Source: Pseudomonadales bacterium (lineage in GTDB: Bacteria; Patescibacteriota; Microgenomatia; UBA1400; PJMF01). Taken from it: DNA of 64,000 nt. Positions 3,043-55,305 of the stretch are shown here, one piece after another. Numbering within the stretch: the stretch's first letter is position 1; every line of letters starts with the position of its first letter. Made by a program: the position numbers and the translations under genes. The stretch covers positions 184,216-248,215 of the forward strand of contig JACKFX010000001.1 in NCBI GenBank assembly GCA_020632255.1. Reading direction: 5' to 3'. Under the pieces are notes generated by a model. The model did no database searches. It saw only the letters and a program-made list of their open reading frames with translations, and was not told the origin of the DNA.

Positions 3043-6000
3043 TTATCTTAGCAAAGCGGCGACTTTCTTTTCTAGTTTTTCTGACCATTTAACGCCGTAT
3101 GGCAAGAGTAATTTTTGCGGTTCACCGCCGTTTGGAATCAAAATTAAGACACTGTTATCTCCTGGGTATTGTTTGAGTAGTGTGCCTAAGGCTTTGAGTG
3201 TGTCCTTGCTTGTTTTTCGTGGAATGAAAATTTCTTTGTGCACGCCGTTGGTTTCGTGTGTTATTTCTCCTGTGCTGGGTTTGCTGACTTTTTCGGCGAT
3301 TAGCTGCATTTCTTCATCTCGATAGTCGACTTTGGCTTTGATGAGCAGAACTGCATCATCTTGGATGGCATCTTTGTATTCATCATAGGTACGAGGAAAA
3401 AAGACTACATCGATGCTGCCGGTTGAATCCTCTAGTCGGCCAAAAGCCATATCTTTGCCTGATTTTCTGGTTTGAACAATGCGAAGGCGAGAAAGTACTC
3501 CACCAAACATGAAAGTATTGTTAGCGTGTAAGTTTGCGTCAAGATCGCCAATATCTTTAGAGATTCGATTAGAGATTGCTCGCAGTTGTGCTGCGAGTGG
3601 ATGATCGGTTAAATACATGCCCAACAACTCTTTTTCAAAGGATAAGAGCTCTTGCTGTGGGTACTCTGGTAGCTGAGGGAAGTCGTCTTTGAGTTCGTTA
3701 GCATTAGTTTCGACATTTGCGAATAAGCTGTCTTGACCATCAATATTAGATTCAAGTTTTGCTGCTGATTTGCGAATGTTCTCCAGGTTTTCAAGCATAC
3801 TGGCGCGTGTGCCAAATGAATCCATTGCCCCAACTTTTATAAGGCACTCGAGGGTTGTTTTGTTGACTTTCCGGCCATCAGTTTCGTTAATAAATTGAGT
3901 CAGCGAAGTAAATTCTCCTATCTCATTTTTTGTTTCGACAATATTTTCAATCGCTTTGCTACCAACATGTTTTATAGCATTGAATCCAAAGCGGATAGCC
4001 AAACCTTCAAGTGAGTTTTTATTCTTTTCAATGATAAACTCAGCATCAGATTTATTAATGTCAGGAGGCAAAATCACGATACCCATTTTTTTACTCCCTT
4101 CGACAGCAGCAGAAATTTTCTCATCGGCGTTCATGGAGTGCGATGCAGCCTCGACACTCATCAAAGCAGTCATGTACTCGACTGGGAAGTTGGCTTTCAG
4201 GTAGGCAGTTTGGTAGGAAATCATCGCATAACTGGCAGCGTGCGCTTTGTTGAACCCGTAGTTTGCGAATGCCATGATGTACTGCCAGACTTTTTCGGCC
4301 ACCTCTTTTGAGTAGCCTCGTTTGCCAGATTCTAATATGAAGCGTTTTTTATTTTCTTCCAGAATTTTGATTTTCTTTTTACCCATGGCGCGGCGGATCA
4401 TGTCTGCTTCACCTAGTGAATAGCCGGCCATGAGTGAGAAAATTTGCATCACTTGCTCTTGGTAGACCATGACTCCGTAGGTTTCCTCAAAGACTTCCTT
4501 GAGTTTTGGGTGCAGATATTCAATCTTATCGGGGTTGTGTTTTCCTTCAATAAATTGTGGAATAAGTTCCATCGGTCCCGGACGGTACAATGCAAGTAAA
4601 GCTGAAACATCTGAAAACTGGCTTGGTTGAAGGCTGCGCGCAACCCGGCGCATGCCTGCCGACTCAAGTTGAAAGACGCCCATGGTTTCGCCACGAGAAA
4701 GCAGTTCGTAGGTTTTTTTATCATCGAGAGCAAGGTTATCAAGATCAAGATCAATATTTTTATATTTTTTAATAAGCTCAAGACAAAACTGTATGGTGGA
4801 AAGATTCCGCAGTCCAAGAAAGTCAAACTTGAGTAGTCCAATGGCATTATCGTCGACGTTACAGTCGAGTGCATACATGTCGTACTGGGTAATCATTTTC
4901 CCTGATTTTGAATCTTGTTGAATTGGCGTGTAGTTGTGCAGTGGTTGGTCAGCAATAATTACGGCGGCAGCATGCATACTGGAGTGACGTACTACACCTT
5001 CAACACGTTTGGCCATATCGATAAGTTTGCGATACTTGGGTAGTTGGTAGTATTCTGAAAGTTCTGGAACTTGCTGGATTGCTTGGTCAAGTGAAGTTTT
5101 TTTACCTGGATCTGCTGGAATAAGTTTGGCGATCATGTCTGGTTCTTCGTAGGGCATTCCCAGCACACGACCAATGTCTCGAATCGAGACGCGAGCTTCC
5201 ATACGACCAAAAGTAATCACATGAGCGACTTGTTCTACTCCATATTTTTCAGAACAGTACTGAATGACTTCATCACGGCGGACATCAGCAAAATCAAGAT
5301 CGATATCAGGAGGAGTTGGACGTTCGGGATTGAGGAAACGCTCGAACGGTAAGTTGTGTTCGAGGGGATTGATGGTGGTAATGCCTAAACAGTATGAAAC
5401 TAGTGACCCGGCGGCGCTGCCTCTTCCTGGGCCCACAGCAATCCCCTGCTCTTTGGCCCAGTTCACAAAATCTTGGGTGATGAGAAAGTACGCAGAGTAG
5501 CCTTTGGTTTGAATGATGTCGATCTCGTATTCAAGCCGTTCAATCATTTCTTTAGTTGGTTTTCCAAACTTTTCATAGAGTTTTTCGTGGGAGTATTTAT
5601 CAAAGAATGAGTCGATGGTTTCACCTTCCGGAATCTCGTAGTTAGGGAAAATCAGCTGACCAGTTTTGATAAAAAGGTTGCATTTTTCGGCTATTTCGAC
5701 GGTGTTGGAGATTGCTTCCGGAAGGTCATGGAAGAGCTCAATCATTTCCTCTTGTGTTTTGAGGTAATAGTCGGGGCTGCTCATTTTCATACGTTTGGTG
5801 TCTGAAATGAGTTTGCGAGTGCCCACACAAATTAATGCATCTTGGGCAGGAGCATCTTCTTTAGTAAGGTAATGAACGTCGGCGGTAGCTACTAGTTTAA
5901 TGTCGAGGTCACGACTTATCTTGATGAGTTTGGTATTCAGGTCTTCGAGGAAGTCGATTTCAGGATGGCGCTGAATTTCCACATAGAAGTCATCGCCAAA

Positions 6001-47148: not shown

Positions 47149-47596
47149 TTTCTTCGGCTATTTGAGATGCACGTGATTCAATTTCATCTAGGTAGGTGTG
47201 GTAGGTATTGCGATCCCACATTTCTATGTACGAATAACTTCCTACTACCACAACATCTTTTTGAATCTTGGCAAAATCAGTCAAGTACTCGGGCAGTTGT
47301 ACTCGACCATTTCCATCCGGAGTCACTTCTTGCGCTTCATTTGTCATTAAACGAATAAAGTCACGATGAGTTTTTTTTGTAAACGAGCGGGCTTCTAGTT
47401 TCTCGAGTTCTGCAGTGAATTTTTCTGCTTCAAAGAGGAATAATCCTCCATCAAGACCTCGAGTTATGATCCAGGCTGATGCTTTCGATCGAAAAGCCTT
47501 TGGTAGTGATACTCTGCCTTTGTCTTCAACTCTGTGATAATATTTACCTATATACATTTTCTTATCAGACAGTTTACCACTTTTTACCACTATCAA
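47138..47596 (-). CDS. mraZ: transcriptional regulator MraZ
   Basis: MYIGKYYHRVEDKGRVSLPKAFR, duplicated MraZ/SpoVT-AbrB domains, first gene of the dcw cluster. Confidence 0.85.
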   Translation of the reverse strand: MIVVKSGKLSDKKMYIGKYYHRVEDKGRVSLPKAFRSKASAWIITRGLDGGLFLFEAEKFTAELEKLEARSFTKKTHRDFIRLMTNEAQEVTPDGNGRVQLPEYLTDFAKIQKDVVVVGSYSYIEMWDRNTYHTYLDEIESRASQIAEEIEN

Positions 47597-47686
47597 GAAT
47601 AAGTATGCTACACCCCAAGCATTTTGTAAACACTAAGATGACCCGAAAACATAGGCCAAATAGCTAATATGATATAATAAATAGCT

Positions 47687-48697
47687 ATGAGACGTTTGGA
47701 GCAAATATCACAGCAGTCGTCGTCTGAGCGTTTTCAATTGGGAAACGCAGAAATTTTTATTGGACCTTCATTTACTTGTGGAACTTCGCACATAAATATT
47801 GAAGAATCTGGACTTTCTACTTTATTAGATAAAAACAGTTTTTCACTCTCACCAGTGATGCATAAGTTTATCCAGAATGAAGGTGAACCACTTGTAAACT
47901 ATCTGGGAGCTATTATATTGTTTTTTACTAGGATTGAAAGAAAATATGTTCAAAAATCAGAAACTTGTGGTAGGTGTGATGTATTTGGCGTACCAAGAAT
48001 TTGTATTTGCAGTAAAGATACCTTTTATAGGATTCGTGGAAATCCACCTCCACCAGAATGGGCGGGAATATATGTCTGGTTTGATGGAACAGTAGTATGT
48101 CAAGCCGATTACTTAGTCGCCGCACTGTCAGGCACTGAGTTTGTTGGAAAACAAGTAGATGGGAGATCATTTATTCGTGAAATAGGACATGAACTACGAC
48201 ATTCGTATCAAGACATACTTTTCTATTATGAAAATGAAAGTTTATGCAAACATGCACAGAAATATGATTTATGGTTCTTTGAAGGTTTAGTTGAAGCAAT
48301 GGATACCACAAGTGTAGGTATGTCATTTAGTACTTTTTCGGAGCGATTTAGACCATTTTTACTAAAACATCCAAATTTTTCGTTTATGGATATTAGATCT
48401 TCGTTTTGGAATTACGATACCTCTCCGGTAATTGATAACCTGATGTATCAGTATTCTCGATTTTTTGTACAGTATTTGCTTCCTTTTTTTGATAGAGCTC
48501 TGCTTTCAACGTTGCGGGGTCATCATATTTCAGCGGAGTTCTCAAGCATATATATCATGATTGAACAATTCTCTGATGCTTATTCTGATGGTTATCGGGG
48601 GACATTCTTGGAGTTCATATCCGAAAAAATTGGGTTAACTGTTGAATTACTTCAGCAAATAGAGGCAGATTTTCAGAAGAGTATACTTGCCTGCTAA
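47687..48697 (+). CDS. hypothetical protein with HEXXH zinc-metallopeptidase-like motif
   Basis: 336 aa, GHELRHSYQD (HEXXH) in the middle of the protein. Otherwise unrecognised. Confidence 0.4.
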   Translation: MRRLEQISQQSSSERFQLGNAEIFIGPSFTCGTSHINIEESGLSTLLDKNSFSLSPVMHKFIQNEGEPLVNYLGAIILFFTRIERKYVQKSETCGRCDVFGVPRICICSKDTFYRIRGNPPPPEWAGIYVWFDGTVVCQADYLVAALSGTEFVGKQVDGRSFIREIGHELRHSYQDILFYYENESLCKHAQKYDLWFFEGLVEAMDTTSVGMSFSTFSERFRPFLLKHPNFSFMDIRSSFWNYDTSPVIDNLMYQYSRFFVQYLLPFFDRALLSTLRGHHISAEFSSIYIMIEQFSDAYSDGYRGTFLEFISEKIGLTVELLQQIEADFQKSILAC

Positions 48698-48840
48698 CAG
48701 TGATTCATAGCATTTCATAAAAAATATGGTTATCTGGTGTATGCTCATAGATTGTGAATGTGGTCTATCATAAAAAGCTCTTCAGGCAGGAAGAGCTTTT
48801 TTAAATGTATTATGTATTTTGATTAATTGGATACAACCAC

Positions 48841-48935
48841 ATATGCGTCCATCAACTCAACAGTTGTGCTGGTAGTTTTGCCATCCATTGCGGTCTCGAA
48901 GCTTGTCCACTCGGTTCCATTCCAGCCTGCAATGA
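48841..48935 (-). pseudogene. orphan duplicate of the 3' (C-terminal) ~95 nt of the 264-aa gene at 54511-55305
   Basis: Near-identical, same orientation as 54519-54613 (ccatcaactcaacagttg(t/c)gctggtagttttgccatcca(t/c)tgcggtctcgaagcttgtccactcggttccattccagcc), then diverges. No ORF context. Confidence 0.65.
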
Positions 48936-48960
48936 AGATTGTTCTTCACGAATGGTGGCT

Positions 48961-49005
48961 GCCAAGGAAACACCGTAGCTAGCGTAGCGTACTGCGGGGA
49001 GGACG
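48961..49005. repeat. ~45-bp repeat 'R', copy 2
   Basis: ggaaacaCCGTAGcTAGCGTAGCGTACTGCGGgGAGGACGTCgTTAA, matching 17368-17412 at the right end of IS200-like element 2. Confidence 0.7.
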
Positions 49006-49052
49006 TCGTTAAGTACTTGAAAATCTTCTTTAATTAAATGAAATAAGGATAT

Positions 49053-49343
49053 TTATAAGGATAATTGCTTTTCTATATCAAGAATTTCATTTTTTGAGAA
49101 AAGACTAAGTAGCATAGAAATATATGAGTTTCTTTCTTTCAAATCAAGAATTTCTTCCCAAGGATTAAATTTGAGATGAAGTTCTAGTGGATGTGGTTCG
49201 TTTATTACTCTTTTAGTAGTGTCAATTTTTATGGCTGTAACTTTGGCTTGTTCCTCAGTACCGAGTTTGGGAACGTCATGTTTATTGATAACTAAAACTT
49301 GATCGGCTAACTTTGCAATTGGGTATATTTCAGCTTGGGTCAT
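49053..49343 (-). CDS. small (~96 aa) partner protein of the giant repeat protein; candidate immunity/antidote-type protein (inference)
   Basis: Start set at the ATG at 49343 (MTQAEIYPIAKLAD...), not the TTG used by the track. AGGAGA Shine-Dalgarno overlaps the giant gene's TAG stop. 60-70% identical paralog at 54062-54355. Confidence 0.6.
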   Translation of the reverse strand: MTQAEIYPIAKLADQVLVINKHDVPKLGTEEQAKVTAIKIDTTKRVINEPHPLELHLKFNPWEEILDLKERNSYISMLLSLFSKNEILDIEKQLSL

Positions 49344-49350
49344 TATTCTC

Positions 49351-52300
49351 CTAGTACACAACTAATTCTACTGTATGATCTGGGTTTTCTCTATTATATC
49401 TATCAACCGCTGTTCTCATTTCAGAAATTTCATACTCAGCTATACCATTACCTAGTGATAAGTGAATTGAGGTAATGTCAGTCATATCTAAGCTTCCATG
49501 AATTTGAATTTCTGAATACGAACTATCGAGTGCAGGTACCAGTGATGGAACTGAGAAGTCAGTCTTGGTTGCCTCCCAAAATCTGATCACATTGTATTTT
49601 TTAAGTGCAGACAAGTAATGAGGTTTTTGAACTGGAGAAGGCGGTCGGTCGTTATTTAAACTATCACCAAAAAGGAAAGTAGACTTCTTTTTGGCCTCAT
49701 TAGCAATTCTACAGCCGGCACGACCATATTGTACGACTGTATTTTCGGGAGGATTTTTTCCCACAGAGTTTAAAACGCCATTATTATCTGGGGTAAAGTA
49801 GCCATAAATAGTTCTTGATTGAGGTTTGTAACTTGTTTCATCTGGAAAACCAAAAGTTCTTAGTTCAAAAGCAGCTCTGTAAGAATTAGAAAGACACCCT
49901 CCTGAAGTTTGGGTTTCAAACTGGCTCTTCCATCTTTTGTCTCTTGGAAGAATATGATTCAGGAGAACGCTTACATCTGTGGCTCTAAAGAGTTGTGATT
50001 GGTCCATAGAAACTTCAGTATAGCGTTGAATCTCATCTAAGAATTCTATCAGTGATAGCCCTTCTTTTCTAAGAATTGTTCTTATGTCTCCATGCTCTTC
50101 GATAGATTCTAAGAATCTTTGCTCGTAAATGAGGATATTCTTAAGCAGAGTGATCTCAAGATCAGGATTTGCTTCGACGTTCATTTTTACACTATCCCAA
50201 TCAGCCATATATTCGATGGTGACATCGGATAATTTATTAATATCGAGTTTGTTTACTTTCTCATCATCGGGGAATTTACGTTTTATTTCAATAAGTTGAA
50301 AGAGAGCCTTTTCTTTAACTTTTTCAAAGGCTTCGGCTTGTTCTGCATTTCTTTCTCTTCTGAGAGAAAACATTCTTTTTCGCTTTTCAATTCTTTCTTT
50401 CGAAAAATACGTTATATCAAAAGTCGTACCAAGATATTGTGCAGCCGAAAGGAACATATGAATTTTTTGATGTTCTTGTGCATATGTGATTAGTTCTTTG
50501 GTTTTTACATCCCTGTCATATCCGGAAAGGCTGTCATAATCTATTCCCAAGTAGGAAGCAACAATCTTATTTTCAACCACGCTAAAGGCAAAAGTCATCA
50601 TTTGTCGAAGATCTGTTAGATCACTTTCGTTTAAGTCTGTGGGCAAATCTTCAATTAGTTTAATGTTGTTAACACGTTCTTCGATTGATTTTTGTCTTTC
50701 AGTAACTTGCTCATTTGTAAAGTACGACAGATTAATATCATCATGAGTGTACTTCATACTTGCAAGCAACTTATCGATGATGGATCTTTTTCCAGCAAGC
50801 TCTATTACTTTGCTAATAGTTGAATTAAGGTAGTGACCAGAAACATCCGAGTATTTGATTCCAATCAGGCCGCAAATTTTTTTTATCTGCTGATTTTCCT
50901 TAACAACACTATAAATAGTTTCAATCAGTACTTCAGTATCCGATGAATTTAAGTTTTCAGGAAATTGGGTGCTTAGTTGTTCTATTTTTCTTTTTCTTTC
51001 TTCACCAGCACTACTCGTGAATTCAGTGATATCAATTTCCTCTTTGATATATTTGATAGCAGAAACAAATTTTTGCATCGCATTGTTATTCTGACTTGAA
51101 TCAAGCATTATATGAACTTTATTGTGTAAATCTCCATCAAGAGATGCATATTCGATGTTTAAGTAGTGTGAGAGTAGTTTGACTTCGACAGAAGCAAACG
51201 ATTCATTTGAGATAATTTGCTTTAAGCAAACAAAACTGTAGTCGTCAAATGTATTCGGGATACTTTCGTTGATTTGAATTTGTTCAGCCATTTCAACGAT
51301 TATTTGATTTCTTCTCTCAATTTCTGCAATTGAGAAAGAATCAAGACCATCATCGTTTAAGACGAATTTTGCAGCTGCGATAAACTTGTTAAGTTGTAAC
51401 CTCTTTTTTGCAATAACAAGCAGGTGCTCAACCATATCACTCTCATAGTAATCATCAATTTCAAAGTAATCTACACCGACAAAAGCGCTGATCAAGACAA
51501 TCTGACTTTTAGAGAGAGCATTTTTGGTTTTTTTCTTCAATTCTTCAAATAATTCTGGGTCAAGATCTTCTGGGAAGTCGTTAACGGATTCCAGCATCTT
51601 TTGTTGACGTTTCTCAATATTGCTTTCGGTAAATTGGGAACAATCAAGATCAGGATTAAGAGAACTAAAAGCGGAAAGGAATTTATTGGTAAGAAAGTGC
51701 TCTTGTGAGTATTTTAGAAGTTTACCTGCTTTTTTGATGGCGCTAACATCACTGAACTCATCAGGACCTATATTCATATATGCTAGTATGACCCTGATAT
51801 CATCCTCAGAAATGTTTTCAAGAACAAGAGGGTATAAGATGTGGTATGTTAATTCATCCAGTTTCTGAGGAAAATCCTCATTAAATACAATTTTATCAGC
51901 TTTTTCTTGGACAATCCTTTTTGCTGCTTCTATGCTTTCTATTGTAAATTCTGATAAAGAAATATGATCAATTGTCACCTCAACAGCTGACAAAAATTTA
52001 TTAACCTGTGCTTTTTCTTTGACTAATCGAAGTGTATTCTGCACTTTATCACTTATATAATAGCCTTCGACATCTTCCATACTAAGACCTAATGCATCTA
52101 AAATTTGCATAAGTTCAGCTGCAGTTATTTCAAACTGGATTTCTTCAAGAAGTCTAGTTTCATAGTAAGCGTCAATAGTAGTTGGATATTTATTAGCTGT
52201 TGCCTCCATCTCCTTTTGTTTGTTATCGATATATTCTTGGGTGAATCGCGTGAGATCGAGGTCTTTTTCGAGGTACACTACGGCTGAAAGAAGTTTATCT

Positions 52301-53952
52301 AGTAGTGAGTGTTCATTTGCATACTCAATAAGACTAGTGATTTTTTGATGGGTAAAATCGCCCTCTAGACTGTCGTAGTCAGCGCCAATATAGGCAGCGA
52401 TAACTTTTGAGTCCTCTTTCTCAATTTTCCAAGAGAGCTCACTAACTAAGTTATTAAGATACAATTGGCTCACTGATTTTGGATACTCACTACGCAATGT
52501 AATTGCTATTACGGATTCTTCAATATATCTACGTCTTTTATCAATATCTTCTTTTGTATAGTATGTCAAGTCAAGTCCATCAAAGAGAATGCTAATTGCT
52601 GAGAGAAATTTGTGTGTCACTTTTTTTTCTTGGACTTGATTGAAAATATTTGCAATTTCTCTGGAATAAGTTCGATCTTCAATACTTACGTATGGAATAT
52701 CAAGAAAGGTGCATAATGAGTTGATTATGTCATCATCAAGAAATGCATCCTTAATCTCTTCAAGAAGAATGTTAAAACTAGTTTGATCTAGTGTAGGATA
52801 AAAAACATCTTGAGATGCTTCTAAAGCAGCAGCTCTCTTTTTTAAAGATTCTTTTGTAAAAATCTTAAAGTCACCTGGGATATATTCTTTTCGGTAACTT
52901 GCGAAATAGATTACAGCTGACAGAAGCTTATGCATCACTGCATGATCTTGTGCATATCTAATTATGTTTTTTGCTTCAGTAGAGTAGTGTGACGCTTCCA
53001 CCTCTTCGTAGTCTGCTCCAATAAATGCAACGATTCTTTTGGCTTCATATTCAGAATGTATATTTCTTGAAATGACTCTCGTTAGTTTTGTTATACTTAA
53101 AACATCAAGTGATTCTGGGTAATCTTCTTCTTTGGCAGCAAGCTTTTCATTCAGTTTGAAAATTTCGTGGTAAAATTCTAAATCGACCTCATCTTTTTTG
53201 ATGTATTGCACTGCTGATAAAAACCTATCAAAAAGAGAATTGCCTTCTGCAAATTCAATCAGCGATGCAAATTCAATCTGCGATGAGATGCTTGTCGTGT
53301 GTGTTTCAGAAACAATCAACTCAGGATCTGCCCCGATATATTGAGCAATTACCTTTAATTCTGACTTTGTAAGTTTGTGTTGTAATTGTTCTGTCAGTGT
53401 ACGAATGTCATGTCCACTTAATGATTTTGGAAATTCATCAATGTAGGGAATTTTATCAGCTTCTTCTACTAGTTCCTCTTTTTCTCTCCTAGTTCTTGCT
53501 ATATCAAGCGCCATCAGTCTTGCGGGGGAGTCCGCATATAAACCAGGTGTTGAAATAGAACTATATGGTTCGCGTCTAGTCAATATATCTCTTATATCGT
53601 AGGAATCAAAAGGAGCATATAAATCGGATTTTTTCTCTTCTGATGTAGGGAATTTAATATCTGGGAAATCTTCTCCAATTCTAATTTTAAGGTCATCAGT
53701 TTCAAACCTAATACCTGGGAAATCTTCTCTAATTTCAAGGCCCTCGGTAGTAGCGGGTGTCATTATATCTACATCACCTAAAGGCTCTGAAATAGTTTCT
53801 TCTGGGTGAGTTTTTTTCATTGCGCGTCGAAGCATTCTAGCGAGTATACTTTTGCCAAATGAATACGGTGTATCGTCATCACCTATTTTGTAGTCAGGTT
53901 TATCTGGGTGTGACTCAATTAGCTTCTTGAATTCGTGAAATTCTGTTGTCAT
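49351..53952 (-). CDS. giant (1533 aa) repeat protein: unique N-terminal region, ~10 tandem ~105-aa novel repeats, distinct ~250-aa C-terminal domain
   Basis: Repeats share (I/V)xx(Y/F)(I/L)G(A/I)DY(D/E), then ~30 aa later (K/R)(F/L)LSA(V/I)xY(I/L/F), then D(L/I)(T/D)x(F/Y)(T/S)xE. No signal peptide, no known motif seen. TATAAT 7 nt upstream of the ATG suggests a leaderless transcript. Confidence 0.7.
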   Translation of the reverse strand: MTTEFHEFKKLIESHPDKPDYKIGDDDTPYSFGKSILARMLRRAMKKTHPEETISEPLGDVDIMTPATTEGLEIREDFPGIRFETDDLKIRIGEDFPDIKFPTSEEKKSDLYAPFDSYDIRDILTRREPYSSISTPGLYADSPARLMALDIARTRREKEELVEEADKIPYIDEFPKSLSGHDIRTLTEQLQHKLTKSELKVIAQYIGADPELIVSETHTTSISSQIEFASLIEFAEGNSLFDRFLSAVQYIKKDEVDLEFYHEIFKLNEKLAAKEEDYPESLDVLSITKLTRVISRNIHSEYEAKRIVAFIGADYEEVEASHYSTEAKNIIRYAQDHAVMHKLLSAVIYFASYRKEYIPGDFKIFTKESLKKRAAALEASQDVFYPTLDQTSFNILLEEIKDAFLDDDIINSLCTFLDIPYVSIEDRTYSREIANIFNQVQEKKVTHKFLSAISILFDGLDLTYYTKEDIDKRRRYIEESVIAITLRSEYPKSVSQLYLNNLVSELSWKIEKEDSKVIAAYIGADYDSLEGDFTHQKITSLIEYANEHSLLDKLLSAVVYLEKDLDLTRFTQEYIDNKQKEMEATANKYPTTIDAYYETRLLEEIQFEITAAELMQILDALGLSMEDVEGYYISDKVQNTLRLVKEKAQVNKFLSAVEVTIDHISLSEFTIESIEAAKRIVQEKADKIVFNEDFPQKLDELTYHILYPLVLENISEDDIRVILAYMNIGPDEFSDVSAIKKAGKLLKYSQEHFLTNKFLSAFSSLNPDLDCSQFTESNIEKRQQKMLESVNDFPEDLDPELFEELKKKTKNALSKSQIVLISAFVGVDYFEIDDYYESDMVEHLLVIAKKRLQLNKFIAAAKFVLNDDGLDSFSIAEIERRNQIIVEMAEQIQINESIPNTFDDYSFVCLKQIISNESFASVEVKLLSHYLNIEYASLDGDLHNKVHIMLDSSQNNNAMQKFVSAIKYIKEEIDITEFTSSAGEERKRKIEQLSTQFPENLNSSDTEVLIETIYSVVKENQQIKKICGLIGIKYSDVSGHYLNSTISKVIELAGKRSIIDKLLASMKYTHDDINLSYFTNEQVTERQKSIEERVNNIKLIEDLPTDLNESDLTDLRQMMTFAFSVVENKIVASYLGIDYDSLSGYDRDVKTKELITYAQEHQKIHMFLSAAQYLGTTFDITYFSKERIEKRKRMFSLRRERNAEQAEAFEKVKEKALFQLIEIKRKFPDDEKVNKLDINKLSDVTIEYMADWDSVKMNVEANPDLEITLLKNILIYEQRFLESIEEHGDIRTILRKEGLSLIEFLDEIQRYTEVSMDQSQLFRATDVSVLLNHILPRDKRWKSQFETQTSGGCLSNSYRAAFELRTFGFPDETSYKPQSRTIYGYFTPDNNGVLNSVGKNPPENTVVQYGRAGCRIANEAKKKSTFLFGDSLNNDRPPSPVQKPHYLSALKKYNVIRFWEATKTDFSVPSLVPALDSSYSEIQIHGSLDMTDITSIHLSLGNGIAEYEISEMRTAVDRYNRENPDHTVELVVY

Positions 53953-53959
53953 AGAAAAA

Positions 53960-53965
53960 ATTATA
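53960..53965 (-). promoter_or_regulatory. -10 box (TATAAT) 7 nt upstream of the giant gene's ATG; possible leaderless transcript
   Basis: Minus strand reads taggTATAATtttttctATGACA. No Shine-Dalgarno is present. Confidence 0.35.
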
Positions 53966-54061
53966 CCTATTTTTTATTGGCTATGTAATAACAAAAAAAG
54001 GAATTTTTTATAGTAAAATATTTTGACCAAGTACTGAATTAAAACAAGCTTAACTGTAACT

Positions 54062-54355
54062 TTATTTTTTCAGTTGTGATTCGATATTACTCATTGTTTC
54101 TTTGGAGAAAAGTCTTAAAAGCATAGACATATAGGCATTTCTCTCATTTTGATCAACAATTTCTTCCCAAGGATTAAATTTGAGATGAAGTTCTAGTGGA
54201 TGTGGTTCGTTTATTACTCTTTTAGTAGTGTCAATTTTTATAGCCTTAACAGTAGCTTGTTTTCTAGGATTTCCAAGTTTAGTTACGTCACTTTTATTAA
54301 TTACTAACAGTAAGTCGGCAAGTTTAGCTATTGGGTAAATTTCGGGTTTTTTCAT
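54062..54355 (-). CDS. small partner-protein paralog (97 aa) of 49053-49343
   Basis: MKKPEIYPIAKLADLLLVINKSDV...KIDTTKRVINEPHPLELHLKFNPWEEI is colinear with the partner protein. Confidence 0.6.
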   Translation of the reverse strand: MKKPEIYPIAKLADLLLVINKSDVTKLGNPRKQATVKAIKIDTTKRVINEPHPLELHLKFNPWEEIVDQNERNAYMSMLLRLFSKETMSNIESQLKK

Positions 54356-54369
54356 ATTAAGTATATAAC

Positions 54370-54500
54370 CATCTCAACGGGATAATCTGGATATAGTTGA
54401 TTATACTCTAAGACTGCTTGTTTCATCTGACCAATTTATTTTCGGGTGATATTATTATTCTTTGATAGATGAATTGAGGTAATATCATTCATGGTAACTT
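54370..54500 (-). pseudogene. degenerate remnant of a giant-protein C-terminal coding end (orphan C-terminal cassette)
   Basis: 54380-54500 aligns by eye at ~65-70% identity with the last ~45 codons of the giant gene (49365-49500), e.g. gata(g/a)(a/g)tgaattgaggtaat(a/g)tca, with indels and frameshifts. No ORF remains. Confidence 0.55.
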
Positions 54501-54510
54501 CACCATTGAA

Positions 54511-55305
54511 TTAGTTGCCCACCACAACATACGCTTCCATCAACTCAACAGTTGCGCTGGTAGTTTTGCCATCCACTGCGGTCTCGAAGCTTGTCCACTC
54601 GGTTCCATTCCAGCCCATGATGGTGAGTGCACCTTCATGTTTTGCACGGATGCTGAGTTCTGCTTCACCTGAAAGAATTGTATTACTGGTCAAAGAATAA
54701 ACTTCTGAAGCTAACTTACCTTCAAGTTCGCCTGGGTATCCTGGAGAGTTGTAGATAATCAGCAAGCTGTTTCGAGCCAAATCTTCAGAATCAATCTGAA
54801 AAAAGGCATCTTTGGAAGCAAAGGCTGTTTCGCCGTTGTTTTCAATGTATTTCCAGTCAGACTTAAGGTCATAGTTGTTGTCTCCTGTGTAGAAAGCTCG
54901 GAGTTCTCCCCCCTTCACATCTTCGTGATAGGTACATGATCCACCTGCACTACAGCTGCCAAGCAAGATTTTATCTTCTGCAGGCAGGCTCATCAGGTCA
55001 ATCTCACCAAAGGCACCCTGGAGGAGTGAACCCGTTTGGTACTCAAGTTCGTACTCTGCAGCATCTGCAGCCAGTTTAACTTCTTCAACTTCAATGACAA
55101 CATTTCGGCTATCAACAGGGACGATGCGCATGTATGGGCGTTCTGCGACGTCGATGACATTGTAGTTACGTATAGTGGTTTTCTTTTTTGTTGGCTCCTC
55201 TGTAGCTGTTTCTGCAGGTTTGCGGGTCATCATGTAGGCACCGACACCGATACCGAGTAACACCAAGACAGCTACGACACCTGCAATAACTTTTTTATTC
55301 TTCAT
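54511..55305 (-). CDS. hypothetical membrane-anchored/secreted protein (264 aa)
   Basis: N-terminal TM/signal anchor (VIAGVVAVLVLLGIGVGAYMM), then a mostly beta-type domain. Its 3' end is duplicated at 48841-48935. Confidence 0.5.
   Translation of the reverse strand: MKNKKVIAGVVAVLVLLGIGVGAYMMTRKPAETATEEPTKKKTTIRNYNVIDVAERPYMRIVPVDSRNVVIEVEEVKLAADAAEYELEYQTGSLLQGAFGEIDLMSLPAEDKILLGSCSAGGSCTYHEDVKGGELRAFYTGDNNYDLKSDWKYIENNGETAFASKDAFFQIDSEDLARNSLLIIYNSPGYPGELEGKLASEVYSLTSNTILSGEAELSIRAKHEGALTIMGWNGTEWTSFETAVDGKTTSATVELMEAYVVVGN

What the first reader, a model, noticed from the sequence alone, without database searches (positions are those of the whole stretch)
49354..50150. C-terminal ~250-aa domain of the giant protein: candidate effector domain with R ... 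S-T-x ... E-x-E order (speculative ART-like)
After the last repeat the sequence changes character. It is rich in G/P/S/N, has a Cys pair (QTSGGCLSNSY, YGRAGCRIANE), and contains in order an Arg in LRTFGFP, an S-T-F in KKKSTFLFGDS and an E-Y-E in NGIAEYEISE. Order and rough spacing resemble the R / S-T-S / E-x-E triad of R-S-E ADP-ribosyltransferase toxins. This is weak pattern matching, but the domain is clearly distinct from the repeats and is the part duplicated in the degenerate cassette. That makes it the likely business end.
Basis: inference. Interest (0 to 1): 0.5.

Follow-up and report, generated by a model that had tools for sequence, protein, structure and literature searches.

The report
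SopF-type ADP-ribosyltransferase toxin with immunity gene

Summary
The last ~215-260 residues of the 1533-aa ORF (window 49351-53952, minus strand) form a distinct globular domain.

- **Homology:** a family profile hits SopF in the PDB by sequence (E 2e-9). Relatives match Pfam DUF3626, which is SopF's domain.
- **Catalytic residues:** the NAD-binding residues proven in SopF (Y224, Y240, E325) correspond to Y1383, Y1409 and E1481, each 97-99% conserved.
R1365 and the E-Y-E are 10-26% conserved and lie in helices. Only T1425 is invariant. The enzyme belongs to the diphtheria-like H-Y-E branch ([R/I/V]-Y-E), not R-S-E.
- **Partner gene:** a 96-aa gene starts 7 nt after the stop codon. A homologue follows the ART gene in 11 of 11 cellular gene pairs (10 loci), and in none of 20 viral loci.
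- **Second copy:** an intact second copy of the small gene sits beside a 49-codon ART remnant upstream.
- **Strain variation:** near-identical strains have lost the giant gene by recombination between the two small genes, and keep a chimeric copy.

Best reading: a toxin-immunity module, here fused to ten EAD7-like (Death-like) repeats. The target and the delivery route are unknown.

The parts
49351..53952 (-). Giant ORF, 1533 aa. GenBank MCB9800776.1, annotated 'hypothetical protein'.
53461..53952 (-). N-terminal region, residues 1-164. Acidic, no signal peptide recognised, no family match.
   Evidence: The leader HMM built from the short homologues does not score it.
50341..53460 (-). Ten tandem helical repeats of 99-106 aa (residues 165-1204), EAD7-like (Death-like adaptor).
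   Evidence: Own-repeat HMM finds 10 units. Pfam EAD7 scores 46.2 bits for the whole protein (cut-off 32). Taken singly, only repeats 4 and 10 hit, at 22 and 27.7 bits.
50134..50340 (-). Linker, residues 1205-1273. Includes the conserved 'Y..W[DE] ... [GA]NP' start of the ART prelude.
49999..50133 (-). Three-helix prelude of the ART domain, residues 1274-1318.
   Evidence: model secondary structure; covered by the family HMM
49354..49998 (-). ADP-ribosyltransferase core, residues 1319-1533, of the SopF/DUF3626 type.
49978..49989 (-). Beta-1 F-R1323-A-T. This is the H/I position of the H-Y-E / I-Y-E triad (family: R 36%, I 24%, V 19%).
   Evidence: the assignment to this triad position is inferred from the ART-fold topology of the model
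49912..49938 (-). Family signature K-R1340-W-K-S-Q-F-E-T (consensus G-R-x-K-S-Q-F-E-T). Role unknown.
   Evidence: 92-98% conserved
49798..49815 (-). R-T-I-Y1383-G-Y on beta-2. Equivalent to SopF R-P-I-Y224 (nicotinamide contact).
49723..49728 (-). Y1409-G1410. Equivalent to SopF Y240-G.
49660..49680 (-). T1425-F-L-F-G-D1430-S1431. T and D are invariant and also present in SopF (N-C-T-F-S-P-F-D).
49495..49518 (-). Y-S-E1481-I-Q-I-H-G on beta-5. E1481 is equivalent to the SopF catalytic E325 (Y-I-E-A-H-I-H-G).
49053..49343 (-). Small gene 'imm1', 96 aa. Its ATG lies 7 nt after the giant ORF's stop, and an AGGAG overlaps that stop. Candidate immunity protein.
54062..54355 (-). Intact paralogue 'imm2', 97 aa, 73% identical to imm1.
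54361..54507 (-). Degenerate remnant of an ART C-terminus. Matches residues 1485-1533 at 49% identity and has an in-frame stop.
54510..54615 (.). 106-bp direct repeat, copy 1 (3' end of the 264-aa membrane-protein gene).
48822..48927 (.). 106-bp direct repeat, copy 2 (91% identical). Together the two copies bracket remnant-imm2-giant gene-imm1.

Best explanation
Residues ~1274-1533 form a SopF/DUF3626-family NAD+-dependent ADP-ribosyltransferase. It belongs to the diphtheria-toxin-like H-Y-E branch, with R/I/V in place of His.

By analogy with SopF, Y1383 and Y1409 would stack on the nicotinamide, and E1481 in Y-x-E-x-Q-x-H would hold the N-ribose and catalyse transfer.

This domain is the toxic or effector module of a 1533-aa protein from a Patescibacteria (CPR) genome. 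Upstream of it are an N-terminal region and ten EAD7-like helical repeats, which probably act as a spacer or an oligomerising, partner-binding scaffold.

The 96-aa protein that is translationally coupled just downstream most likely binds and neutralises the enzyme in the producer cell, acting as an immunity protein or antitoxin.

**Shown:** the fold, homology to SopF, conservation of the SopF-proven catalytic residues, the strict ART-small gene pairing, the orphan or remnant copy, and strain-level loss of the toxin with retention of the small gene.

**Inferred:** NAD+ use, toxicity, the neutralising role of the small protein, and what the repeats do.

**Unknown:** the substrate (protein or nucleic acid) and the delivery route.
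For: **Fold**
- AF2 model has pLDDT 93.9.
- Foldseek against PDB: SopF 7dn9/7dn8 at E 1e-8, DarT at 3e-5.

**Homology**
- 733 homologues at E <= 1e-3.
- 24 of 32 and 35 of 47 relatives match Pfam DUF3626, best 1.6e-61.
- SopF carries DUF3626 (PMC6682159).
- The family profile hits SopF chains at E 2.1e-9, with RPIY, YG, T..D and Y.E.H.HG aligned.

**Catalytic residues**
- SopF Y224 and Y240 (nicotinamide) and E325 (N-ribose) are needed for activity (PMC11937434).
- Their equivalents here are 97-99% conserved.

**Effector role**
- The domain is C-terminal in 112 of 150 homologues.
- It is fused to Phage_Mu_F, NUDIX and a Kinase-PolyVal-like domain in phage and other long homologous proteins.
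- Mycobacterium phage Tierra gp9 is annotated 'capsid maturation protease and ADP-ribosyltransferase'.

**Partner gene**
- A homologue follows the ART gene directly in 11 of 11 cellular ART genes across 10 loci.
- It is absent from all 20 viral loci.
- Orphan copies without an ART occur in two other genomes, L014 and L015/L016.
- In the window, a second intact copy follows an ART remnant.
- Strains L012 and L013 (95-98% nt identity) lack the giant gene and carry a chimeric small gene. The crossover lies in an 88-bp tract that is identical in the two window copies.
Against: - The window's own sequence is below the Pfam DUF3626 threshold (20.3-20.9 bits against 27).
- No biochemical data exist for any member other than SopF.
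- No signal peptide or known trafficking domain was found, and no secretion-system genes lie in the 64 kb.
- Across the same loci the small protein is more conserved (63% mean column identity) than the ART (~35-40% identity to the window's domain). That is unusual for an immunity protein.
- P1381 (93% Pro in the family) is Thr here.
Confidence: 0.65

Rival explanations
1. Intracellular abortive-infection or toxin-antitoxin module, with DarTG-like logic. The ART stays in the producer cell and is held in check by the small antitoxin. The EAD7-like repeats couple it, through homotypic contacts, to an EAD7-bearing NTPase sensor encoded elsewhere. Infection releases the ART to kill or arrest the cell.
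For: - EAD7 is described as an adaptor that recruits effectors to NTPase-centred conflict systems (PMC7159879).
- The whole-protein EAD7 score is above the Pfam cut-off.
- DarT is the second-best structural match.
- There is no signal peptide.
- The gene pair is tightly coupled, with the small gene downstream.
Against: - No other EAD7-like ORF exists in the 64-kb window.
- Nine of the ten homologous cellular loci lack the repeats yet keep the ART-small gene pair.
- The small protein is not a macrodomain or any other recognisable hydrolase.
- Orphan small genes occur in unrelated genomes. That fits acquired immunity better than an antitoxin.
Confidence: 0.2
2. The small downstream protein is not an inhibitor. 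It is instead a dedicated chaperone or export adaptor, or an activating cofactor of the ART, in the way that ARF activates SopF and calmodulin activates OspC3/CopC.
For: - The sequence is very highly conserved, with invariant L-E-x-H-L-K-F-N-P-W-E-E.
- It is small and, for imm1, acidic (pI 5.6).
- It is always adjacent to the ART gene.
- SopF and CopC need host cofactors (PMC10333799; PDB titles).
Against: - It is retained as a chimeric but intact gene when the ART gene is deleted.
- It is duplicated next to a dead ART remnant.
- Orphan copies exist without any ART.
- It is absent from all 20 phage-borne ARTs.
- imm2 is basic (pI 9.6).
Confidence: 0.12
3. One reading: an R-S-E class toxin with R1365, S1424-T1425 and E1506-x-E1508 as the catalytic triad.
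For: - The three strings occur in the right order.
- T1425 is invariant.
Against: - R1365 is 10% conserved, and E1506 and E1508 are 10% and 26% conserved.
- Both motifs lie in helices.
- The pattern is found in 32% of shuffles.
- The strongest matches are SopF and DarT, both of the H-Y-E branch.
Confidence: 0.02
4. The domain is a catalytically dead ART fold that serves only as a binding or decoy module.
For: - The window's copy departs from the family consensus at a few positions (P1381T; the 86%-conserved Lys is Ala at 1417).
- Decoy effectors are discussed for EAD systems.
Against: - All residues proven necessary in SopF are present and near-invariant across the family.
- A tightly linked neutraliser-like gene is maintained.
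Confidence: 0.05

Closest known systems
SopF (Salmonella T3SS-1 effector; Pfam DUF3626; PDB 7DN8/7DN9)
   Same: - Significant profile-sequence match (E 2e-9).
- The same motifs are present: R-P-I-Y, Y-G, T..D and Y-x-E-x-[HQ]-x-H-G.
- The His of H-Y-E is replaced by I/V/R.
   Different: - About 17% identity, and the window's copy is below the Pfam threshold.
- SopF is a stand-alone effector injected into eukaryotic cells, is activated by ARF GTPases, and modifies Gln124 of ATP6V0C.
- Here the domain ends a 1533-aa repeat protein in a CPR bacterium and has a dedicated small partner gene.
- The substrate and any activator are unknown.
DarT of DarTG toxin-antitoxin systems
   Same: - An ART toxin is encoded next to its neutraliser.
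   Different: - No sequence-level match was found.
- The DarG antitoxin is a macrodomain hydrolase. The partner here is a 96-aa protein with no fold match.
- The DarT target, thymidine in ssDNA, was not tested here.
Phage MuF polymorphic toxins / polyvalent proteins with a C-terminal ART (e.g. Mycobacterium phage Tierra gp9)
   Same: The same DUF3626-type domain sits at the C-terminus of Phage_Mu_F fusions and of NUDIX- or kinase-containing long proteins.
   Different: - Those are virion-associated phage proteins and have no small partner gene.
- The window's gene lies among chromosomal housekeeping genes: mraZ, rsmH, glycyl-tRNA ligase.
Polymorphic toxin systems (Zhang et al. 2012, PMC3482391)
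   Same: - C-terminal toxin domain.
- Immunity-like gene immediately downstream.
- A remnant toxin tip with an extra immunity gene.
- Strain-to-strain presence or absence.
   Different: - No recognised N-terminal trafficking domain, Rhs/filamentous repeats or pre-toxin domain.
- The extra cassette lies upstream, not downstream, of the main gene.
EAD-coupled effector proteins of NTPase conflict systems (Kaur et al. 2020, PMC7159879)
   Same: An EAD7-like helical adaptor is fused to an enzymatic effector.
   Different: - There are ten tandem copies rather than one.
- Single repeats fall below the Pfam cut-off.
- No EAD7-bearing core NTPase lies in the 64 kb.

Membership tests
SopF / DUF3626 ADP-ribosyltransferases | Match to Pfam PF12294 at or above the gathering score (27 bits) | tested here: not met
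   The window domain scores 20.3-20.9 bits, E 2e-4 to 3e-4. However, 24 of 32 and 35 of 47 of its HMMER-significant relatives pass, best 1.6e-61.
SopF / DUF3626 ADP-ribosyltransferases | Significant sequence relationship to SopF itself | tested here: met
   A profile of the window, CPR and viral members hits SopF chains 7dn8_C at E 2.1e-9 and 7dn9_A at E 4e-8. These were the only PDB hits.
SopF / DUF3626 ADP-ribosyltransferases | ART fold closest to SopF | tested here: met
   [not shown]
SopF / DUF3626 ADP-ribosyltransferases | NAD-contact residues equivalent to SopF Y224, Y240 and E325 | tested here: met
   Y1383, Y1409 and E1481 are present and 98%, 97% and 99% conserved.
SopF / DUF3626 ADP-ribosyltransferases | NAD+-dependent ADP-ribosylation activity; Gln specificity; ARF activation | not testable with these tools
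   Needs biochemistry.
R-S-E class ART toxins (cholera/pertussis/C3-like) | Conserved Arg on beta-1 | tested here: not met
The beta-1 residue is R1323, which is R in only 36% of the family and I/V in 43%.
R-S-E class ART toxins (cholera/pertussis/C3-like) | S-T-S motif on beta-2 | tested here: not met
   In the model, beta-2 carries R-T-I-Y-G-Y. S1424 is 12% conserved. T1425 is invariant, but it lies on a later strand, after the Y-G motif.
R-S-E class ART toxins (cholera/pertussis/C3-like) | [QE]-x-E on beta-5 | tested here: not met
DarTG toxin-antitoxin | Neighbouring macrodomain antitoxin (DarG) | tested here: not met
   [not shown]
Polymorphic toxin systems | Immunity gene immediately downstream of the toxin-encoding end | tested here: met
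   There is a 7-nt gap in the window, and a homologue directly follows the ART gene in 11 of 11 cellular ART genes. The neutralising function itself was not tested.
Polymorphic toxin systems | Recognised N-terminal trafficking or secretion domain | tested here: not met
   Pfam, NCBIfam and PHROGs give no hit on residues 1-164. The leader HMM from the short homologues does not score it.
Polymorphic toxin systems | Orphan or displaced toxin-tip plus immunity cassettes | tested here: met
   A remnant at 54361-54507 is followed by the intact imm2 at 54062-54355. L006 also carries a degenerate ART copy after its small gene.
EAD-coupled conflict systems (EAD7) | EAD7 domain on the effector protein | tested here: inconclusive
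   The whole protein scores 46.2 bits against a cut-off of 32. Single repeats reach only 22 and 27.7 bits, and 8 of 10 repeats give no hit.
EAD-coupled conflict systems (EAD7) | Cognate EAD on a core NTPase or other component in the neighbourhood | tested here: not met
   An HMM of the repeats finds nothing else in the six-frame translation of the 64 kb. The rest of the genome was not available.

The most novel reading that the evidence does not exclude
This is a weapon of an episymbiotic CPR bacterium. A SopF-type ART is delivered to, or unleashed against, another cell. It is carried on a chain of ten Death-like (EAD7) domains that self-assemble or dock onto a partner. A previously unrecognised family of ~100-aa immunity proteins protects the producer.

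Orphan copies of that small-protein family in non-CPR genomes (a 5.9-Mb genome and a Poribacteria MAG) would then be acquired defences of potential victims.

If correct, this would be the first defined toxin-immunity pair of Patescibacteria, and it would show that the SopF family is mainly a prokaryote-against-prokaryote toxin.
Probability: 0.3. Interest if true: 0.75.

Novelty: new variant of a known kind. Interest (0 to 1): 0.6.

Why it matters
**SopF family.** SopF is the only characterised member of DUF3626, and it is known as a eukaryote-directed effector. This locus shows the same catalytic machinery used widely as a C-terminal conflict domain in three settings:
- in CPR and DPANN genomes;
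- in phage MuF fusion proteins;
- in long multidomain proteins.

**The small partner protein.** The locus also links the enzyme to a new, strongly conserved small-protein family that behaves genetically like an immunity factor.

**CPR biology.** Very little is known about the molecules CPR bacteria use on their hosts or rivals. This gene pair is compact and can be tested directly.

**The repeats.** Ten Death-like adaptor repeats fused to an enzyme is an unusual architecture. It may help explain how such adaptors work in bacteria.

Tried and rejected
**PDB sequence searches that failed before one succeeded**
- Single-sequence phmmer of the domain against PDB gave 0 hits.
- A profile that included the helical N-terminal flanks gave only coiled-coil noise.
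- P0152 alone gave 0 hits.
- Only a core-only profile that included viral members reached SopF.

**Searches limited by the tools**
- The word-indexed homologue search found only 1-4 relatives. The exhaustive search was needed.
- The search for related loci with the 32-sequence alignment failed for lack of a conserved stretch. It worked with 8 sequences.
- The exact giant protein was not on record for contig look-up.

**Family libraries with no useful hit**
- NCBIfam, PADLOC and PHROGs gave nothing for the ART, the small protein or the neighbours.

**Ideas tested and rejected**
- That the giant protein shares the N-terminal leader (M-F-E-R-F-T-E-P-K ... L-A-R-E-M-L-E-R-F-R) of the short CPR homologues. 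Rejected: the leader HMM does not score it.
- That an EAD7-bearing partner lies nearby. Rejected for this window.
- That the 336-aa convergent ORF (47687-48697) belongs to the third family seen next to the ART elsewhere. Rejected: BLASTP E 0.57.
- That the two Cys form a conserved pair. Rejected: 7% and 10% conservation.

**Uninformative scans**
- Promoter and terminator scans were no better than shuffles.
- Rfam found only two distant tRNAs.
- The literature library has 2 papers that mention DUF3626 and none that mention a SopF-like family.
Full report
**Anatomy**

The finding lies at the 3' end of a 1533-aa ORF on the minus strand, 49351..53952. The protein has these parts:
- An acidic N-terminal region, residues 1-164.
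- Ten tandem helical repeats of 99-106 aa, residues 165-1204. They average 24% pairwise identity. An HMM built from them finds exactly ten units here and nothing else in the window.
- A 69-residue linker.
- A final block, residues 1274-1533.

**Checking the observation**

What holds up:
- All the quoted strings are present.
- The composition does shift: G/P/S/N make up 28% of the core against 17% of the repeats, p = 2.5e-4.
- The block folds as a single confident domain, with pLDDT 93.9 and pTM 0.91.

What does not hold up is the proposed R / S-T-x / E-x-E triad:
- A loose version of the pattern occurs in 32% of shuffles of the same residues.
- In an alignment of 121 homologous domains, R1365 is 10% conserved, S1424 12%, E1506 10%, E1508 26%, and the two Cys 7% and 10%. 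Only T1425 is invariant.
- In the model, R1365 lies in a helix and E-Y-E opens the C-terminal helix. Neither lies on the strands that carry ART catalytic residues.

The "degenerate cassette" is real but small. It is the last 49 codons, 49% identical, with an in-frame stop, at 54361-54507.

**What the domain is**

Direct evidence from the window's own sequence was weak:
- Pfam gave a sub-threshold hit to DUF3626: 20 bits, E 3e-4, against a cut-off of 27.
- DUF3626 is the domain of the Salmonella effector SopF (PMC6682159). SopF is an ADP-ribosyltransferase with an 'I-Y-E' triad resembling diphtheria-toxin-like enzymes (PMC10333799).

Evidence from relatives and structure is strong:
- An exhaustive HMMER search found 733 homologues at E <= 1e-3 and 151 at E <= 1e-10.
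- 24 of 32 short relatives and 35 of 47 long relatives match DUF3626, best 1.6e-61.
- Foldseek's best matches to the model are SopF (7dn9/7dn8, E 1e-8, TM 0.56-0.59), followed by DarT, CteC, CopC and Tpt1.
- A profile restricted to the catalytic core, built from the window plus CPR and viral members, hits the SopF chains by sequence alone at E 2.1e-9 and 4e-8. Nothing else in the PDB was hit.

**Catalytic residues**

SopF mutations E325A (N-ribose contact) and Y224A or Y240A (nicotinamide contacts) largely block its ADP-ribosylation activity. The mutagenesis primers printed in PMC11937434 reveal the local SopF sequence:
- S-R-P-I-Y224-A-A-L
- A-S-A-Y240-G-K
- N-Y-I-E325-A-H-I-H-G

The HMMER alignment and the family conservation place these residues on the window's protein as follows:

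| SopF residue | Window motif | Conservation in family |
|---|---|---|
| Y224 | S-R-T-I-Y1383-G-Y | 98% |
| Y240 | Q-Y1409-G1410 | 97% (Y), 100% (G) |
| E325 | Y-S-E1481-I-Q-I-H-G | 99% (E), 98% (Q), 97% (H) |

- The strand-1 position that holds His in H-Y-E enzymes, and Ile in SopF, is R1323. Across the family it is R 36%, I 24% and V 19%.
- The invariant T1425 and D1430 also align with T and D in SopF (N-C-T-F-S-P-F-D).
- The class is the diphtheria-like H-Y-E branch, not R-S-E.

**Where the family occurs**

- The domain ends within 40 residues of the C-terminus in 112 of the 150 best homologues. A few proteins of 1000-2700 aa carry 2-5 copies.
- Partner domains in the long homologues include NUDIX (14 of 47), ADPrib_exo_Tox, Topoisom_I and Kinase-PolyVal.
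- In IMG/VR, 20 viral loci carry the domain. It is fused to Phage_Mu_F in L025 and L032, and to NUDIX plus DUF5661 in L019. One 327-kb phage contig has five copies.
- GenBank phage and plasmid hits include Mycobacterium phage Tierra gp9, annotated 'capsid maturation protease and ADP-ribosyltransferase', and a Hymenobacter plasmid 'DUF3626 domain-containing protein'.
- In the genome collection, the closest relatives come from Saccharibacteria, Vogelbacteria, Collierbacteria, Parcubacteria and other Patescibacteria MAGs. There is also one Nanoarchaeota MAG and one MAG labelled Gammaproteobacteria.
- The window itself is from an NCBI MAG labelled 'Pseudomonadales bacterium' (giant protein MCB9800776.1, 'hypothetical protein'). 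Proteins at 90% identity or more are labelled Dojkabacteria, Woesebacteria and Pacebacteria, so the organism is almost certainly a CPR bacterium.

**The partner gene**

- A 96-aa ORF (49053-49343) starts 7 nt after the giant ORF's stop codon, and an AGGAG overlaps that stop.
- A homologue lies directly after the ART gene in every cellular locus examined: L001, L003-L010 and both pairs in L017. With the window this makes 11 of 11 ART genes. This was the only neighbour conserved in all of them.
- It is absent from all 20 viral loci.
- Orphan copies without any ART occur in a 5.9-Mb genome and in a Poribacteria MAG.
- In the window, a second intact copy (54062-54355, 73% identical) follows the ART remnant.

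Two contigs from near-identical strains are especially informative. These are L012, labelled Ca. Woesebacteria, and L013, both 95-98% identical in nucleotide sequence to the window.
- They run from the membrane-protein gene through the remnant into a single small gene, and then into the 336-aa ORF.
- The single small gene has the 5' part of imm2 and the 3' part of imm1.
- The switch lies in an 88-bp tract that is identical between the window's two copies.
- The giant gene is therefore strain-variable. It was lost (or gained) by recombination between the two small genes, and a functional-looking small gene was kept.

This pattern is what is expected of an immunity gene: always beside a cell-encoded toxin, absent from phage versions, duplicated beside dead toxin tips, and retained when the toxin is lost. 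One caveat is that across the same loci the small protein is more conserved (63% mean column identity) than the ART (about 35-40% identity to the window's domain).

**The repeats**

- The whole protein passes the Pfam EAD7 threshold (46.2 bits against 32). Taken one at a time, only repeats 4 and 10 match, at 22 and 27.7 bits.
- EAD7 is one of the alpha-helical 'effector-associated domains' proposed to couple effectors to NTPase-centred conflict systems by homotypic contacts, by analogy with Death-fold domains (PMC7159879).
- No second EAD7-like protein lies in this window.
- Only one other locus (L001/L002, ART 59% identical) has the repeats. There an in-frame TAG splits the gene, and the same split is seen in two independent samples.
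- The short CPR homologues have an E/P/K-rich linker in place of the repeats. The repeats are therefore an accessory spacer or scaffold and are not needed for the ART-small gene module.

**Surroundings**

- The module lies in an AT-rich stretch (33-39% GC against 43-47% in the flanks) from about 47.6 to 54.5 kb.
- Its neighbours are mraZ and rsmH on one side, and a membrane-protein gene and glycyl-tRNA ligase on the other.
- The rest of the window is housekeeping: DnaE, IleRS, a Mur ligase, RecO and sugar transferases.
- A 106-bp direct repeat, which is the 3' end of the membrane-protein gene, brackets remnant-imm2-giant gene-imm1.

**Mechanism and rivals**

- **Preferred reading (about 0.65):** an NAD+-dependent ART toxin or effector neutralised by a cognate small immunity protein.
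- **Main rival (about 0.2):** the same enzyme used inside the cell as an abortive-infection or TA effector, wired through its EAD7 repeats to a sensor encoded elsewhere.
- **Second rival (about 0.12):** the small protein is a chaperone or activator rather than an inhibitor. Its retention after toxin loss, and its absence from phage versions, argue against this.

The substrate cannot be inferred. The two closest structures modify a protein glutamine (SopF) and a DNA base (DarT).

**Novelty**

The enzyme family is known through a single characterised member. I found no description of the following in the searchable literature:
- the family's wide use in CPR genomes;
- its obligatory small partner family;
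- its fusion to tandem EAD7-like repeats.

I rate this a new variant of a known kind.

Noticed in passing
L012:1-2316 and L013:1-1894 compared with window 47549-54930: Near-identical strains (95-98% nt identity) lack the whole 4.6-kb giant gene. They carry one chimeric small gene, with the 5' part of imm2 and the 3' part of imm1. The crossover lies in an 88-bp tract that is identical in the window's two copies.
   Followed up: yes
window 48822-48927 and 54510-54615: A 106-bp direct repeat (91% identical) matches the 3' end of the 264-aa membrane-protein gene. It brackets remnant-imm2-giant gene-imm1, like the scar of an insertion into that gene's end. No integrase was seen.
   Followed up: partly
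window ~47600-54500: An AT-rich island (33-39% GC against 43-47% in the flanks). It also covers the convergent 336-aa ORF at 47687-48697, which has no hit in any family library and is kept in the strains that lost the giant gene.
   Followed up: partly
whole window (GenBank locus tags H6773_01210-01230): The source MAG is labelled 'Pseudomonadales bacterium'. Proteins at 90% identity or more come from Ca. Dojkabacteria, Woesebacteria and Pacebacteria, so the taxonomic label is probably wrong.
   Followed up: partly
L001:2910-2912 and L002:777-779 (junction of ORFs 3-776 and 780-2213): The closest homologue of the giant gene is split by an in-frame TAG inside its second-to-last repeat. The same split occurs in two independent samples. 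It is either a real split gene or a pseudogene.
   Followed up: partly
L003:6367-7521, L004:6394-7551, L005:6257-7387, L007:9143-10327(-), L017:8485-10395: A third protein family (~385 aa, beta-rich C-terminus ending S-Y-[VL]-M-G-[WFY]-[RK], no Pfam hit) lies next to the ART pair in 5 of the 11 loci compared. In L007 it carries the same N-terminal leader as the ART proteins. In L017 it is fused to a Kinase-PolyVal-like domain.
   Followed up: partly
L006:3777-4137 and 4185-4258: After its small gene, this Vogelbacteria locus has a degenerate ART copy. The prelude and the last ~60 residues remain, and the catalytic core is deleted. A tRNA-Gln follows directly.
   Followed up: partly
L022 and L023 (IMGVR_UViG_3300028800_000001, 327 kb): A jumbo-phage-sized viral contig carries five separate ORFs with this ART domain within about 12 kb. 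None has the small partner gene.
   Followed up: no
window 50341-53460 (-): The spacing between repeat anchors alternates between about 99-100 and 105-106 residues (99, 106, 105, 99, 105, 99, 105, 100, 105). This hints at a two-repeat super-unit.
   Followed up: no
window 53620-53730 (-), residues ~75-110: A short internal repeat, E-D-F-P-x-I-x-F, occurs twice in the N-terminal region. Most EAD7-like repeats, and the ART prelude, also begin with a similar acidic-F/Y-P motif.
   Followed up: no
L014:8001-8360; L015 and L016:8001-8312: Orphan homologues of the small protein, with no ART nearby, occur in a 5.9-Mb genome and in a Poribacteria MAG. In one Poribacteria-type contig the gene lies beside a CRISPR-Cas/RT locus.
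   Followed up: partly
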